Sequence record: MZ726797.1
Strand: one strand, 5' to 3'
From: Escherichia phage vB_EcoS_AVIO78A
Length of the DNA: 57,811 nt
Shown: positions 9,058 to 26,568 of the stretch, in pieces
Layout: each line of letters starts with the position of its first letter
Position numbering within the stretch: the first letter of the stretch is position 1
Notes under the pieces: model-generated
Seen by the model: the letters and a program-made list of their open reading frames with translations, nothing else
Databases searched by the model: none
What the model was told of the DNA's origin: nothing
Program-made: the position numbers and the translations under genes

Positions 9058-9359
9058 TTGACTTTGCCCCGGACAGTTCCGGGGCTTTTTTCAACGTCTG
9101 AAAGAACAGCGAGGCTAACAGAACCTAAACCGAATATGACGGCGTATGTTAGCTGATGTTGAAGTTTCACAAAACCGTAATAATCGCTTTGCAATTCCAC
9201 GATGTCAAAAGCAATTGAAAAACTGGTTACCAGCAACATGATTGAAAGAACACGAATCAGAGCAACTGCTAATCCTATCACCCCTTGTTCTTTTTTCTCA
9301 GTTGTAATAACGACAACAATCATTAACAGAAGTGAAAAAGCAATGTACATGTATTCCAT
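9051..9359 (-). CDS. small membrane protein (2-3 predicted TM segments)
   Basis: ORF track; hydrophobic stretches. Confidence 0.45.
   Translation of the reverse strand: MEYMYIAFSLLLMIVVVITTEKKEQGVIGLAVALIRVLSIMLLVTSFSIAFDIVELQSDYYGFVKLQHQLTYAVIFGLGSVSLAVLSDVEKSPGTVRGKVNQ
9066..9091 (+). terminator. intrinsic terminator (identical to the one at 26543)
   Basis: GCCCCGGACAGTTCCGGGGC plus T6. Confidence 0.7.
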
Positions 9360-9519
9360 AATTATTAGTCCCGATAAACTTCAGCACACCCGTAAATTTT
9401 ACCAGGGTTGTAAACCTGTTCAGCTTGTAACGCACCCTGACACTGTTCGAACGTCATGATATGTTCTGTCACAGGTTCAATAGTCACACCATGCAGAACA
9501 AGCACTAGTACATAACCAA

Positions 9520-9855
9520 TTAACATTTTCTTAGAGTCTCCCGCCAGTTCAGACCGTGTAGGTTTACAGTTGCAAGCCTCACTTTTGGGAAACCGTCATA
9601 ATGAGTATCCCAAAATTCACTACAGGGTTCTGGTTCACTAAAATACCCGTAAACACCCCCATAACTATCCGTGGCTATATAGTCAATATCTTCAGGAACA
9701 GTTAAAGACAAACCAAAATAATTGACAGTTTTATACACGTCTGCACTAGCCAGTGTCATTTTACAATCTGGTGCTTCTTCGTGGATATCCCACGATTTAC
9801 CACAGTGTGAACACTGATATTCATCGTTACAGCGAATAGCGTTTACATGATTCAT
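9520..9855 (-). CDS. Cys-rich hypothetical protein
   Basis: ORF track; CxxC-containing. Confidence 0.45.
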   Translation of the reverse strand: MNHVNAIRCNDEYQCSHCGKSWDIHEEAPDCKMTLASADVYKTVNYFGLSLTVPEDIDYIATDSYGGVYGYFSEPEPCSEFWDTHYDGFPKVRLATVNLHGLNWRETLRKC

Positions 9856-10145
9856 GATTGTTCTCCGATTGCTTTTTTGATTGCTTCACGAGCACCTTCA
9901 ATACGTGCTAAACCATCAAAACCTGTACTTGGTAAGTATGACATAAACTCTTCACATAACTGCAAGGCTTCTAACAGTTCCGGCGCTGCAGCGATTAATC
10001 GTGCGTTTGCTAATTGTTCTGTTTTGTCACCGTTATAAGTTGGTGTATATGCAATCTCAACACCTGAGTCTGAAACAATATCGGGAGTATTATCATCATT
10101 GATAACAACTTTCCACGGACCTTGTGTACCTTTAAACTGATTCAT
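9852..10145 (-). CDS. hypothetical protein with NARLIAAAPELLEAL motif
   Basis: ORF 9852..10178 trimmed to ATG 10145. Confidence 0.45.
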   Translation of the reverse strand: MNQFKGTQGPWKVVINDDNTPDIVSDSGVEIAYTPTYNGDKTEQLANARLIAAAPELLEALQLCEEFMSYLPSTGFDGLARIEGAREAIKKAIGEQS

Positions 10146-10150
10146 GATTA

Positions 10151-10573
10151 TCACCCCGCGTCCTGAATATCTTCCCATTCTTCGTTAGATATATTTTGCC
10201 CAAAAGCACCGCCGTAAAAATAATTTTCACCGGGCCAAACGATACTACCGCCATAATAACCGTTCGAACTATTACGATAGTCAATCACCATGTCGCCTTT
10301 ATCAGTGGTGATTTTTGCACCATAGAACTGAAGACACTCATATTCTTCATTTTCTAGCGGCTCTTTGTTCATATCTAAATCATCGCAAGCAATGACGGTA
10401 AACGGAAAGCCTAATGCTGGAAGTTCTACTGATTCAATCCATGTGTGTGAACAACAGTCAGCATCAACACGAACGATCAGTTGTTGACCATCATCAGTGA
10501 CAAAAAGAAGTGCTTCTTTATCCGAAGCGATTTGCATTTTAACTATTTTCTTATTCAATAATAAGTTATTCAT
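10151..10573 (-). CDS. hypothetical protein
   Basis: ORF track; AAGGGG RBS. Confidence 0.5.
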   Translation of the reverse strand: MNNLLLNKKIVKMQIASDKEALLFVTDDGQQLIVRVDADCCSHTWIESVELPALGFPFTVIACDDLDMNKEPLENEEYECLQFYGAKITTDKGDMVIDYRNSSNGYYGGSIVWPGENYFYGGAFGQNISNEEWEDIQDAG

Positions 10574-10576
10574 AAT

Positions 10577-24174: not shown

Positions 24175-24607
24175 TATGGCTAAGGCTAACGTTAATGACA
24201 TAAACCGTATAACAGGTGTCTTTAAAGACATTAAAGCTGACCTGCGAGATTTTACCGATCGTGAAGTCATCCGGTATGTCCTGACGTTACGTAATATTCT
24301 TGTCAGTGAACCACCTGACGGTACACCTGTGGATATAGGCTGGGCAAGCAACAACTGGTGGTTCGATCAGGGGCAACCCGCTAATAGTCCTGATACACCA
24401 ACAGGTAATGTTGAAGCCAGTAAAGCACGTATCGAACAGGATACGGTCACTATCAGCAGTATTAAAGTTAATGGTCAGGAACTGCATATTACTAACAACG
24501 TTCCTTACATTGGGGTTCTCAATGGTGGTAGCAGTACACAGACACCTTCCGGGTTTGTCGAACGTGCTATATTAAAAGCCGGAATAATGGTGAGGTTTAA
24601 TCAGTGA
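24161..24607 (+). CDS. neck/tail completion protein (putative)
   Basis: position in head-tail joining block. Confidence 0.3.
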   Translation: MELPDMAKANVNDINRITGVFKDIKADLRDFTDREVIRYVLTLRNILVSEPPDGTPVDIGWASNNWWFDQGQPANSPDTPTGNVEASKARIEQDTVTISSIKVNGQELHITNNVPYIGVLNGGSSTQTPSGFVERAILKAGIMVRFNQ

Positions 24608-25029
24608 TGACACTCTCAGATGTTTCAGGAATTGTTTATAATCGCGTTCTGGCGAATCTCCCCGTGGAAATTACGCCTGACAGATTTACAATCGCTTCTG
24701 GTCAACTCCCTGATGACACTACAGAAAAACCCGGTCTGATTCTGACACACAATCCCGGTCCGTGGACAATAACCACGCTGGGTGGGGAAGGTGTTTGTCG
24801 CCGTCGTTTAAGAACAGGAAACGTTTTTTTACAGGTACGCACACCTGCTCAGTATGGTATGGACACTTTGAGTATTGATATTGCGGATCGGCTTGCAAAA
24901 TTATTTGAAGGTGTCTGGCAGGACCGCCCGTTAATTTACACGAGTGTTGATATTCGTCATCAGGGTCGTGATAACGCGTGGTTTTTAACGAACGTCGTAC
25001 TTAGTTACGAATACGAAGAAATATATTAA
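24604..25029 (+). CDS. tail terminator-like protein (putative)
   Basis: position immediately before major tail gene. Confidence 0.3.
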   Translation: MMTLSDVSGIVYNRVLANLPVEITPDRFTIASGQLPDDTTEKPGLILTHNPGPWTITTLGGEGVCRRRLRTGNVFLQVRTPAQYGMDTLSIDIADRLAKLFEGVWQDRPLIYTSVDIRHQGRDNAWFLTNVVLSYEYEEIY

Positions 25030-25065
25030 ACTACGAATGATTGCAATCAAACGAGGCTTAGAACA

Positions 25066-26523
25066 ATGGCTGAATCAATTTTTAAATGTTCGCAAACACC
25101 TGCGGCTGACGTAAACGCAACACGACTCAGTGTGGCAAAAGTCTGTGAACCTGTTTCTGGTACACCCTGGACGGTTCAACAACCGAATGAAATCAGTTCT
25201 TACAGTGCTGATATTACAAAGACTCAGCGTACACCGATCAGTACGGACCGATCTGCACGTAAAGGCACGGTAACTAACGTTGAAGTTGCACCGGGCTTTC
25301 AGACAGACCTGACACTTGATACGTTCCGCTACTGGGGTGACGGATTCCTTTATAGTAAATGGGTCGGTGCTGGTGCAATTGATATTGACGTTACCAGTGT
25401 TGGCGCAGACGCTTATAACGTTACTACTCTTGATGCGGCATTACCTGAAGGTGCTCTTGTTTATGCGACAGGCTTTACACTGGCTGCAAACAACGGTTTG
25501 AAAACTGTAGGCGCTGATAGTACCACTACAGCTATCAACGTGTCAGGGCTTACTGCCGAAGCGTCACCGCCTGCTGAAGCTCGTTTGTATCTCGTGGGTT
25601 ATGCTGCCGCGTCTGGTGATATCGCTGTTAACAGTAATGGTCAGTTGACATCTACTACCCTGGATTTTTCCACACTGGGTTTAGTACCGGGACAGTATAT
25701 TTATATTGATGGTCTAACACAGTCGGTTACCAGTAAAATGGCCCGCGTGACTATGGTTGGTGATCATGTTCTGACTCTCGCTAACAGTGAATTCACCACT
25801 GAAGAAGGTACGGGTAAAACTGTACGTTTATTTGTTTCCGGTTTTGTTCGAAACGTTCCTGTTGATTCTGCAGAGTTCGTGAAAACTGAATACACGATGG
25901 AAGCACGTTACAACACGACACCTGTTATTTATGAATATGCGCGTGCTGTAGCTGCAAATCAGATGACGATTAACGCGCCGTTGACCGAAAAAATGACAAT
26001 GGATTTGACGTTTGTTGCGCAAGACTTGTCAGCACCGTCAGAAACCGCGCTACCGGGTTCCGGGTATATTGAATTCGTGGCTAACGAAGCGTACAACACC
26101 GTAACGAACCTGAACCGTGTACGACTGACCGGGATTGATGATAGTGGACTCAGTACGTTCCTGAAAGACGTTACTGTCACCGTGAATAACAACGTGTCAG
26201 GTGAAAACGTGCTGGGCGTGATGGGTGCTGCGTTTACCAACATCGGTAACCTGGAAATCACGATGGAAACTGAAACGGTGATGACGGACGGTGCTGTATT
26301 GGCTGCGATCCGTAACAACGCGACCGTTAACTTCGAACTTGCTGGGGTAAACGGTGATGGTGCAATCGTGGTTAACATTCCTGCGATGACGCTGGGTGAC
26401 GGTTCCAAGAACCTTGCAACGGGCGAAAAAGTGAAAGTCACTGTTAGCGGTAACGCCCACGAAGAAGAGTCGATCGGTTTTATGATTGGGTTTAGCTTGT
26501 TCCCGTACTTGCCTACAGCATGA
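25066..26523 (+). CDS. major tail protein (putative)
   Basis: 485 aa Thr/Val/Ala-rich; before tail chaperone frameshift pair; strong terminator downstream. Confidence 0.5.
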   Translation: MAESIFKCSQTPAADVNATRLSVAKVCEPVSGTPWTVQQPNEISSYSADITKTQRTPISTDRSARKGTVTNVEVAPGFQTDLTLDTFRYWGDGFLYSKWVGAGAIDIDVTSVGADAYNVTTLDAALPEGALVYATGFTLAANNGLKTVGADSTTTAINVSGLTAEASPPAEARLYLVGYAAASGDIAVNSNGQLTSTTLDFSTLGLVPGQYIYIDGLTQSVTSKMARVTMVGDHVLTLANSEFTTEEGTGKTVRLFVSGFVRNVPVDSAEFVKTEYTMEARYNTTPVIYEYARAVAANQMTINAPLTEKMTMDLTFVAQDLSAPSETALPGSGYIEFVANEAYNTVTNLNRVRLTGIDDSGLSTFLKDVTVTVNNNVSGENVLGVMGAAFTNIGNLEITMETETVMTDGAVLAAIRNNATVNFELAGVNGDGAIVVNIPAMTLGDGSKNLATGEKVKVTVSGNAHEEESIGFMIGFSLFPYLPTA

Positions 26524-26542
26524 CATGGTGGATGGTAGTTTT

Positions 26543-26568
26543 GCCCCGGACAGTTCCGGGGCTTTTTT
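26543..26568 (+). terminator. intrinsic terminator (identical hairpin to 9066)
   Basis: GCCCCGGACAGTTCCGGGGC plus T6. Confidence 0.7.

What the first reader, a model, noticed from the sequence alone, without database searches (positions are those of the whole stretch)
9066..26568. Identical 26-bp terminator at two distant sites
Seen in sequence: GCCCCGGACAGTTCCGGGGC plus T6 occurs at 9066..9091 and 26543..26568, each directly abutting the stop of a leftward gene. Inference: duplicated module boundary, possibly a recombination hotspot for cassette exchange.
Basis: partly seen in the sequence, partly recalled or inferred. Interest (0 to 1): 0.3.

Follow-up and report, generated by a model that had tools for sequence, protein, structure and literature searches.

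The report
Twin terminator hairpins bounding phage gene cassettes
The two identical 26-bp sequences are ordinary transcription stop signals of a 9NA/Sasha-type phage. One of them marks the edge of a slot where small unknown genes are swapped between related phages, and the stop-signal hairpins themselves have been exchanged between sites.

Summary
An exact repeat, 29 bp rather than 26, lies at 9063-9091 and 26540-26568. Each copy folds as an 8-bp GC-rich stem with a 4-nt loop and a T6 run on the + strand. Both therefore look like Rho-independent terminators of rightward transcription, not of the leftward genes.

The window is a Sashavirus/9NA-like siphophage. GenBank already annotates terminators at both orthologous sites in phages Sasha, Sergei and Solent.

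Site 2 follows the tail tube gene and is the left border of a hypervariable single-gene slot. Relatives hold five unrelated unknown-function genes there, or nothing. The right border is a repeated early promoter. The window's cassette (26564-26779) is invariant across 11 genomes while its flanks are polymorphic.

Site 1 shows no breakpoint in 12 relatives.

About 19 close relatives carry a different hairpin at site 2, so the identity in this genome is derived. It arose by a replacement limited to the hairpin. The window's third hairpin (27582-27603) has likewise taken on the relatives' site-2 hairpin. Loops also flip orientation between close relatives.

Verdict: a known kind of element. The recombination-boundary idea holds for site 2 only. 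Interest is modest.

The parts
9063..9091 (+). Terminator copy 1 (site 1). Stem 9066-9073/9078-9085, loop CAGT, T6 9086-9091. It ends the rightward accessory block that follows the terminase gene.
   Evidence: -18.4 kcal/mol. The orthologous site is annotated 'terminator' in Sasha, Sergei and Solent.
26540..26568 (+). Terminator copy 2 (site 2). Same hairpin and T6, 19 nt after the tail tube stop codon. It is the left border of the variable gene slot.
   Evidence: -17.2 kcal/mol. The orthologous site is annotated 'terminator' in Sasha, Sergei and Solent. Breakpoints in 7 of 12 relatives fall here.
8884..9057 (+). Small rightward ORF (57 aa, phrog_25697), the last gene before terminator 1.
   Evidence: Annotated as a CDS in Bas82, 9NA and Solent.
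9051..9359 (-). Leftward membrane-protein gene (phrog_15669). Its reading frame runs through terminator 1 because of a 7-nt deletion near 9099-9105.
   Evidence: the profile is matched only over residues 1-90 of 102.
25066..26523 (+). Major tail tube gene, the unit ended by terminator 2.
   Evidence: Pfam Phage_tube_2 on the orthologues.
26570..26737 (-). 55-aa gene of unknown function (phrog_20712), the current occupant of the variable slot.
26564..26779 (-). Invariant cassette block: T-run, gene, leader and part of the promoter. It has zero variable sites among 11 genomes.
26758..26811 (-). Copy of the repeated sigma-70-type early promoter (AAAATAATTCTTGACG...). It drives the cassette leftward and forms the right border of the slot.
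   Evidence: (family D2).
26815..26874 (+). Conserved stretch joined directly to the terminator T-run in relatives with an empty slot. It lies upstream of the tail assembly chaperone gene (26875-27297).
27582..27608 (+). Site-3 terminator after the tail assembly chaperone. In the window it carries hairpin GCCCGGTTAACGCCGGGC, which is the relatives' site-2 hairpin.
1416..1491 (-). Site-0 composite: hairpin CCCCGGTTAGTTCCGGGG + T-run (1474-1491) running straight into an early-promoter repeat (1416-1469).
11052..11105 (-). Early-promoter repeat at the head of the leftward block that converges on terminator 1.
   Evidence: Breakpoint cluster at 11031-11046 in 5 relatives.

Best explanation
Both copies are Rho-independent terminators that stop rightward transcription at two convergent junctions of a Sashavirus/9NA-like siphophage. 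One ends the accessory block after the terminase gene. The other ends the tail tube gene.

They belong to a small family of (G)CCC(C)GG-loop-CC(G)GGG(C) hairpins. The family occupies at least four conserved junctions in this phage group: 1474, 9066, 26543 and 27582.

Their identity in this genome is not a segmental duplication and is not ancestral. It arose when the site-2 hairpin alone, at most about 28 nt, was replaced by the allele that also sits at site 1. The donor is unresolved. It was either site 1 of the same genome, or a pre-existing site-2 allele from another 9NA-like phage.

Site 2 is the left edge of a gene slot. The slot's right edge is a repeated early promoter. Unrelated small genes are swapped in and out by recombination at those two conserved edges. 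Site 1 is a stable junction.

Shown here: sequence, fold, position, comparative pattern. Inferred: termination activity in vivo and the recombination mechanism.
For: Terminator anatomy:
- 8-bp stem with 7 G-C pairs, 4-nt loop, -17 to -18 kcal/mol, U6 only on the + strand.
- The hairpins start 8 and 19 nt after co-oriented stop codons.
- Both orthologous sites are already annotated as terminators in Sasha, Sergei and Solent.
- Stems are conserved and loops are free across three tail-tube clades.

The identity is derived:
- 10 contigs with the identical cassette and 2 with the identical chaperone protein all have GCCCGGTTAACGCCGGGC, or its flip, at site 2. Nine of the ten cassette contigs and both chaperone contigs have CCCGGTTAGTTCCGGG at site 3; the tenth (L053) shows no hairpin of this family there.
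- So do the E. coli relatives in the phage database.
- Flanks are 95-100% identical, while the hairpin segments are 63-78% (site 2) and 82-89% (site 3).

Slot behaviour at site 2:
- Homology between groups ends at the T-run.
- Contents are 55, 87, 207, 72 or 58 aa genes from five different PHROGs, or nothing.
- Block 26564-26779 has 0 variable sites, against 41/224 and 17/226 in the flanks.
- The 87-aa cassette is 93-95% identical between phages whose flanks are about 80% identical.
- Mosaic breakpoints are enriched at hairpins and promoter repeats: 14 of 65 clusters against 2.9 expected.
Against: - No transcript data. Termination is inferred from sequence only.
- Breakpoint enrichment could simply reflect selection for crossovers in intergenic DNA.
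- Site 1 has no breakpoints at all, so the hairpin sequence by itself does not make a hotspot.
- The donor of the site-2 replacement is unresolved. The window's left flank GGTAGTTTTGCCCC matches foreign site-2 alleles (Sasha, 9NA, Carvaje, QZLM01006684). It does not fit a clean copy from site 1. Yet the site-3 change has only an intragenomic donor known.
- Zeng et al. 2019 (J Virol, 9NA-like phages) could not be read, so prior description cannot be excluded.
Confidence: 0.7

Rival explanations
1. Origin variant M1: intragenomic ectopic gene conversion or template switching. Site 1 donated its hairpin to site 2, and earlier the old site-2 hairpin was copied into site 3. Terminators in one genome homogenise each other.
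For: Both unusual hairpins of the window match hairpins that exist in the same genome or in its immediate ancestors. No phage with TTAACG at site 3 was found among about 20 relatives. None was found among 59 unrelated contigs with the same stem. The site-3 change is a 3-nt patch flanked by 9 and 11 nt of identity.
Against: The left junction at site 2 does not fit. The ancestor is GGTAGTGGTTGCCCGG, site 1 is TGACTTTGCCCCGG, and the window is GGTAGTTTTGCCCCGG. This needs a junction without homology that happens to recreate the flank seen in foreign alleles.
Confidence: 0.4
2. Origin variant M2: short-patch homologous recombination with a co-infecting 9NA-like phage. That phage already carried the GCCCCGGACAGTTCCGGGGC allele at site 2. 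On this view the identity with site 1 reflects an older inter-site copy.
For: Metagenome contig QZLM01006684 has the same 45 nt (spacer, hairpin and T6) at site 2. Its tail tube gene is only 81% identical and it carries a different cassette. Klebsiella phage Carvaje has the loop-flipped version at site 2 and no other copy in its genome. The window's left flank equals this allele type.
Against: It needs crossovers within 16 nt on the left and about 10 nt on the right. It does not explain the simultaneous site-3 change. The allele is rare: one hit in the metagenome scan and none in IMG/VR other than 9NA-type loops.
Confidence: 0.4
3. One reading: the two copies are portable recombination sites, and cassettes are exchanged at both junctions.
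For: Site 2 behaves this way. A 59%-identical homologue of the SP069 slot gene sits in a different leftward slot in contig L015.
Against: There are no breakpoints at site 1 in 12 relatives. No cassette was found to have moved between the two sites. Recombination between the two copies would delete 17.5 kb of essential head genes.
Confidence: 0.15
4. The hairpin also acts as a bidirectional terminator or 3'-end stabiliser for the converging leftward early transcripts.
For: The hairpin forms equally well in the leftward RNA, at -17.6 to -20.1 kcal/mol. It sits 1 nt after the stop of the leftward gene at site 2.
Against: There is no U-tract in that direction: AAAG or AAAA follows. The + strand has T, not A, upstream of the stem.
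Confidence: 0.2
5. Chance convergence of two GC-rich terminators, or a sequence-specific protein or RNA recognition site rather than a plain terminator.
For: GCCCCGG/CCGGGGC and AAGCCCGG/CCGGGC stems are common in unrelated phages.
Against: Among 59 unrelated contigs with the same stem, 29 different loops occur and none is TTAACG, TTAGTT or ACAGTT. No match appears in shuffles. Loops flip orientation and differ freely at orthologous sites, which argues against loop-specific recognition. There is no Rfam family.
Confidence: 0.05

Closest known systems
Annotated Rho-independent terminators of Salmonella phages Sasha, Sergei and Solent (e.g. KX987158 7376-7395 and 23292-23312)
   Same: Orthologous positions, the same GCCCCGG/CCGGGGC stem and T-run, and the same convergent gene arrangement.
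   Different: In those phages the two sites have different centres (AACAGT against CGTTAAA). Only the window has them identical over 29 bp.
PeSLs (promoter-early stem-loops) of T4-type myoviruses (Arbiol et al. 2010, PMC2839356; Comeau et al. 2014, PMC4122927)
   Same: Repeated sigma-70 early promoters with AT-rich upstream regions, plus G/C-rich terminator stem-loops, flank unknown-function genes. Indels and replacements between close relatives occur at these motifs. One crossover was mapped inside a loop. Window 1416-1491 is a composite of this kind.
   Different: At sites 1 and 2 the hairpin and the promoter are not one composite motif. They lie at opposite ends of the cassette, and the hairpin's T-run serves the opposing transcription unit. 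The host genome is a siphovirus structural module, not a T4 hyperplastic region. Mini-circles were not tested.
Morons of lambdoid phages (HK97 gene 15 between the tail chaperone and tape measure genes; PMC3594210)
   Same: An extra, horizontally acquired gene with its own promoter sits between tail genes. It is present in some relatives and absent in others, and has lower GC (0.375 against 0.477 for the tail tube gene). Bas82 and PJ16 even carry a superinfection-immunity gene between the chaperone and tape measure genes.
   Different: The cassette is transcribed antisense to the late genes. It has no canonical terminator of its own. The phage is virulent, so expression from a prophage does not apply.
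Hairpin-mediated small inversions ('flip-flop') in chloroplast non-coding DNA (Kelchner & Wendel 1996; PMC6824564)
   Same: The loop is replaced by its reverse complement while stems and flanks stay unchanged. The change recurs and is incongruent with relatedness.
   Different: Here it occurs in phage terminators with 7-8 bp G/C stems and 4-7 nt loops. I found no prior description for phage terminators in the searches I ran.
T7 T-phi terminator after the major capsid gene (own knowledge, not tested here)
   Same: A strong hairpin terminator sits directly after a very abundant structural gene, with needed genes downstream.
   Different: T7 uses its own RNA polymerase. Partial read-through here is only an inference.

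Membership tests
Rho-independent (intrinsic) terminator | Stable G/C-rich stem-loop | tested here: met
   8-bp stem, 7 G-C pairs, -17.2 and -18.4 kcal/mol, z = -3.2 and -5.1.
Rho-independent (intrinsic) terminator | U-tract immediately 3' of the stem | tested here: met
   T6 directly after the stem on the + strand at both sites.
Rho-independent (intrinsic) terminator | Located just downstream of the stop of a co-oriented gene | tested here: met
   8 nt after ORF 8884-9057 and 19 nt after the tail tube gene.
Rho-independent (intrinsic) terminator | Structure conserved in relatives while the loop sequence is free | tested here: met
   Stems are kept in three clades. Loops are ACAGTT, AACTGT, AACAGT, CGTTAAA, TTTAACG, ACTAA, TTAACG and TGTTAA.
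Rho-independent (intrinsic) terminator | Measured transcript 3' ends or termination activity | not testable with these tools
   Needs term-seq or a reporter assay.
Bidirectional terminator | A-tract upstream of the stem, giving a U-tract on the other strand | tested here: not met
   Upstream is TTT or TTTT. The leftward RNA has AAAG or AAAA after the stem.
PeSL (promoter-early stem-loop) cassette | Composite motif: stem-loop directly adjoining a consensus early promoter | tested here: not met
   Not met at 9066 or 26543. Met only at 1416-1491.
PeSL (promoter-early stem-loop) cassette | Motif repeated many times and flanking genes of unknown function | tested here: met
   About 14 promoter repeats and 4 related hairpins. 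All slot genes belong to unknown-function PHROGs.
PeSL (promoter-early stem-loop) cassette | Indel and replacement breakpoints between close relatives fall at the motifs | tested here: met
   Met at sites 2 and 3 and at several promoter repeats. Not at site 1.
PeSL (promoter-early stem-loop) cassette | Recombination products (mini-circles) between motifs | not testable with these tools
   Needs inverse PCR on infected cells.
Moron | Extra gene present in some relatives and absent in others, between two conserved genes | tested here: met
   The slot is empty in PJ16, BDX09P1, L057 and L058.
Moron | Own promoter and own terminator | tested here: inconclusive
   The promoter repeat is present. 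The only hairpin has its U-tract for the opposite strand.
Moron | Base composition differs from neighbours | tested here: met
   GC is 0.375, against 0.477 for the tail tube gene and 0.437 for the genome. The chaperone gene is also low at 0.39.
Segmental duplication of a module boundary | Similarity extends beyond the functional element into the flanks | tested here: not met
   Identity is exactly 29 bp.

The most novel reading that the evidence does not exclude
9NA-like siphophages run a PeSL-like system inside their structural gene module. Repeated early promoters and a small family of terminator hairpins delimit slots for unknown-function genes and serve as the crossover points for their exchange. 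The hairpins themselves evolve in concert, through ectopic conversion between sites and frequent loop flips. In the window lineage the hairpins at two successive sites have each been overwritten by the hairpin of the site upstream.
Probability: 0.3. Interest if true: 0.5.

Novelty: new member of a known kind. Interest (0 to 1): 0.3.

Why it matters
In practice, these are standard terminators, and relatives already annotate them as such.

The wider point is modest but real. [quoted passage not shown] The data here show how one such slot is built and refreshed: a terminator on one side, a repeated early promoter on the other, and a cassette that has spread unchanged through diverged genomes.

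They also give a clean natural example of terminator hairpins being exchanged and flipped as tiny modules. This matters for three things:
- alignment-based phylogeny of phages;
- engineering insertion sites in phages of this type (Sashavirus/9NA-like);
- testing whether PeSL-type shuffling, described in T4-type phages, is general.

Tried and rejected
- Rfam scan of the whole window: no family.
- Host origin of the hairpin: absent from 5,426 complete E. coli genomes.
- Did the hairpin arrive with the 55-aa gene? Homologues in Klebsiella Webervirus phages, Salmonella phage SP6, Cornellvirus phages and IMG/VR contigs (at most 85% aa identity) have other terminators or none. Ten contigs with the identical gene have a different hairpin. 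Rejected.
- Import of the whole segment between hairpins 2 and 3 from a divergent lineage: rejected, because the chaperone gene is 93-99% identical to relatives.
- A repeated late-promoter motif in the conserved stretch upstream of the chaperone gene: the sequence is unique in the window.
- Exact-protein look-ups of the window's tail tube and frameshifted membrane protein: not on record.
- Pfam on all slot proteins: nothing.
- Zeng et al. 2019 (J Virol 93:e00848-19), the main paper on 9NA-like genomics, is not held.
- A first fuzzy-regex script timed out.
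Full report
**Observation.** The 26-mer GCCCCGGACAGTTCCGGGGCTTTTTT is present exactly twice, at 9066-9091 and 26543-26568, both on the + strand. 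No further match appears at up to three mismatches, and none in 100 shuffles. The repeat finder and direct reading show that the identity is 29 bp, with TTT in front, at 9063-9091 and 26540-26568. It ends there on both sides.

**What genome this is.** The window is a Sashavirus/9NA-like siphophage. Regions around both sites match Sashavirus 536P12 and BDX09P1, Escherichia phages Bas82, PJ16 and PDP46, and Salmonella phages Sasha, Sergei, Solent, 9NA and SP069. Klebsiella phages such as Carvaje match more distantly. The gene before site 2 (25066-26523) is the major tail tube gene. [quoted passage not shown]

**Anatomy.**
- Each copy folds as an 8-bp stem with 7 G-C pairs and a 4-nt loop, at -17.2 and -18.4 kcal/mol. 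No shuffle folds as well.
- The T6 run follows the stem on the + strand. In the leftward RNA the stem is followed by AAAG or AAAA.
- The hairpins start 8 nt after the stop of + ORF 8884-9057 and 19 nt after the tail tube stop.
- They are therefore terminators of the rightward units, sitting at convergent junctions.
- The simple scan ranks them as the strongest terminator-like sites in their regions.
- GenBank records of Sasha, Sergei and Solent already carry 'terminator' features at both orthologous positions.
- Rfam has nothing here.

**Correction on the leftward genes.** At site 2 the 55-aa gene 26570-26737 stops 1 nt from the T-run. At site 1 the leftward ORF 9051-9359 reads through the hairpin in this genome. 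One copy of a 7-nt direct repeat just right of the T-run is missing here: TGAAAGATGAAAGA in all relatives, TGAAAGA in the window. In relatives the stop codon overlaps the T-run. The PHROG profile covers only residues 1-90 of the 102-aa product.

**A hairpin family.**
- Related CCCGG-loop-CCGGG hairpins sit at four conserved junctions: 1474-1491 (leftward), 9066, 26543 and 27582-27603.
- Three loop types recur. L1 is ACAGTT or AACTGT. L2 is TTAACG or CGTTAA, with 7-nt forms. L3 is TTAGTT or AACTAA.
- At every site, close relatives differ by an exact reverse complement of the loop with unchanged stems and flanks. Examples are site 1 in the window, PDP46 and BDX09P1 against PJ16 and Bas82; site 2 in Sasha against 9NA; and site 0 in the window against BDX09P1.
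- At site 1 the two orientations are mixed among phages that share the same flanking SNPs, so the flip has recurred.
- This is the 'flip-flop' known from chloroplast hairpins.
- The exact hairpin is absent from 5,426 complete E. coli genomes. In phage collections it occurs only in this group.
- Similar stems are common in unrelated phages. But 59 unrelated contigs with the AAGCCCGG/CCGGGC stem show 29 different loops, and none is one of these three. Shared loops are therefore not convergence.

**Site 2 is a gene slot.**
- In all relatives the sequence is conserved up to the T-run. Homology between groups is then lost until a conserved leader and a copy of a repeated early promoter.
- Relatives with an empty slot (PJ16, BDX09P1, L057, L058) join TTTTT(T)G directly to TTGCGTAATTTG.
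- Occupants are genes of 55, 87, 207, 72 or 58 aa from five different PHROGs, all of unknown function.
- The promoter repeat (AAAATAATTCTTGACG..., about 14 copies) heads every leftward block inside the structural region.
- The exact 55-aa protein is on at least 20 public contigs. The 10 that were read are all Sashavirus-like and carry it in the same slot.
- Across those 10 and the window, block 26564-26779 has no variable site. The last 224 nt of the tail tube gene have 41 variable columns, and the chaperone gene has 17 in 226. The chance of zero variable sites at the lower of those two densities is about 5e-8.
- Likewise, the 87-aa cassette is 93-95% identical between Bas82/PDP46 and metagenome contig QZLM01006684, whose flanking genes are about 80% identical.
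- Cassettes therefore spread between diverged genomes, with edges at the terminator T-run and inside the promoter repeat.
- Over 1-31000, 14 of 65 breakpoint clusters against 12 relatives lie within 20 nt of a hairpin or promoter repeat, where 2.9 are expected (binomial 9e-7). Part of this enrichment may simply reflect that crossovers survive best in intergenic DNA.

**Site 1 is not a variable junction.** All 12 relatives align through it. The nearest clusters are at 8976 (3 relatives) and 9863-9870 (10 relatives).

**Origin of the identity.**
- About 19 clade-1 relatives have a different hairpin at site 2. Three have GCCCCGGCGTTAAACCGGGGC and the rest have GCCCGGTTAACGCCGGGC or its flip. Those in which a site-3 hairpin was found have L3 there.
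- The window alone has L1 at site 2 and L2 at site 3, while its flanks are 95-100% identical to theirs.
- Two replacements limited to the hairpins therefore occurred in this lineage.
- The same cassette lies next to different hairpins (window against 10 contigs). The same hairpin lies next to different cassettes (window against QZLM01006684, which shares 45 of 45 nt of spacer, hairpin and T6). Crossovers must therefore lie within a few nucleotides on both sides of the hairpin.
- The donor is unresolved.
  - An intragenomic copy from site 1 has a ready donor and parallels the site-3 change, for which only an intragenomic donor is known.
  - However, the window's left flank (GGTAGTTTTGCCCC) equals the flank of foreign site-2 alleles (Sasha, 9NA, Carvaje, QZLM). 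It cannot be made from the ancestral GGTAGTGGTTGCCC and site 1's GACTTTGCCCC without a junction lacking homology.
  - L1 at site 2 occurs once in each of the three tail-tube clades. Carvaje has no second copy.

**Comparison with known systems.**
- Function: a plain intrinsic terminator. All sequence-level criteria are met and activity is untested.
- Architecture: closest to the PeSLs of T4-type phages. Those are repeated early promoters plus G/C stem-loops flanking unknown-function genes, with recombination at the motifs. Here the composite arrangement is met only at 1416-1491, not at the two copies in question.
- The slot occupant resembles a moron, but it is antisense to the late genes and lacks its own canonical terminator.
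- The 9NA genome paper notes the many small novel genes interspersed among virion genes and the mosaic relationships. The 2019 paper on 9NA-like genomics could not be read.

**Verdict.** The added value is the evidence for cassette spread with defined edges, and for hairpin-level exchange and flipping.

Noticed in passing
window 1416-1469, 3572-3625, 5015-5068, 11052-11105, 13275-13328, 14888-14942, 18635-18688, 26758-26811, 44822-44875, 44892-44946 (leftward); 18973-18997, 39899-39923, 50214-50238, 52179-52203 (rightward): About 14 copies of a conserved sigma-70-type promoter with an AT-rich upstream part (AAAATAATTCTTGACGnATTnCA). One copy heads each leftward gene block embedded in the structural module.
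   Followed up: partly
window 27582-27603: The terminator after the tail assembly chaperone carries loop TTAACG. Every relative in which this hairpin was found (about 20) has TTAGTT here. TTAACG is the relatives' site-2 hairpin, so a second hairpin-only replacement occurred in the same lineage.
   Followed up: yes
window 1474-1491, 9066-9085, 26543-26562 and orthologous sites in loci L003-L019: Hairpin loops are exact reverse complements between close relatives while stems and flanks are unchanged. At site 1 the pattern is incongruent with flanking SNPs, which implies recurrent loop flips.
   Followed up: partly
window 9092-9110: A 7-nt deletion (one copy of the direct repeat TGAAAGA) relative to all relatives. 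It frameshifts the C-terminus of the leftward membrane protein, so that ...SFRR* becomes ...DVEKSPGTVRGKVNQ*. Translation then runs through the terminator hairpin. It could be real or a sequencing error.
   Followed up: partly
window 9863-9870: This is the most shared mosaic breakpoint in the left 31 kb: 10 of 12 relatives. It lies between ORFs 9520-9855 and 9852-10178 and is not at any hairpin or promoter repeat.
   Followed up: no
window 6926-8975: The rightward four-gene block after the terminase gene is absent from PDP46 and three IMG/VR contigs. The left breakpoint is at the terminase terminator (6902-6919). The right one is at 8976 (8760 in PDP46), 90 nt (306 nt in PDP46) before terminator 1.
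   Followed up: partly
L008 (9NA) about 20203-20372: 9NA carries an unannotated, frameshifted copy of the SP069 58-aa slot gene between the tail tube and chaperone genes. A 59%-identical homologue sits in a different leftward slot in IMG/VR contig L015.
   Followed up: no
L005 (Bas82) 20941-22036; L006 (PJ16) 20625-21417; L054, L055: The slot between the chaperone and tape measure genes holds a superinfection-immunity gene plus a DUF723/T5orf172-type endonuclease in some relatives. It is empty in the window. This is the same position as the original HK97 gene 15 moron.
   Followed up: no
window 41937-42347: A long array of 30-nt tandem repeats (15 overlapping copies reported), probably inside a coding region (family D1).
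   Followed up: no
window 17-184, 57522-57706, 56826-56930: Clusters of TAGTGCATGTTGTGCATTA-like repeats near both ends of the window, and a 21-nt x 4.5 tandem repeat. They could be an origin, a packaging region or regulator binding sites (families D3, D5, D7).
   Followed up: no
window 18792-18891 and 57707-57806: A 100-nt direct repeat, 91% identical and AT-rich, at two distant intergenic places (family D6).
   Followed up: no
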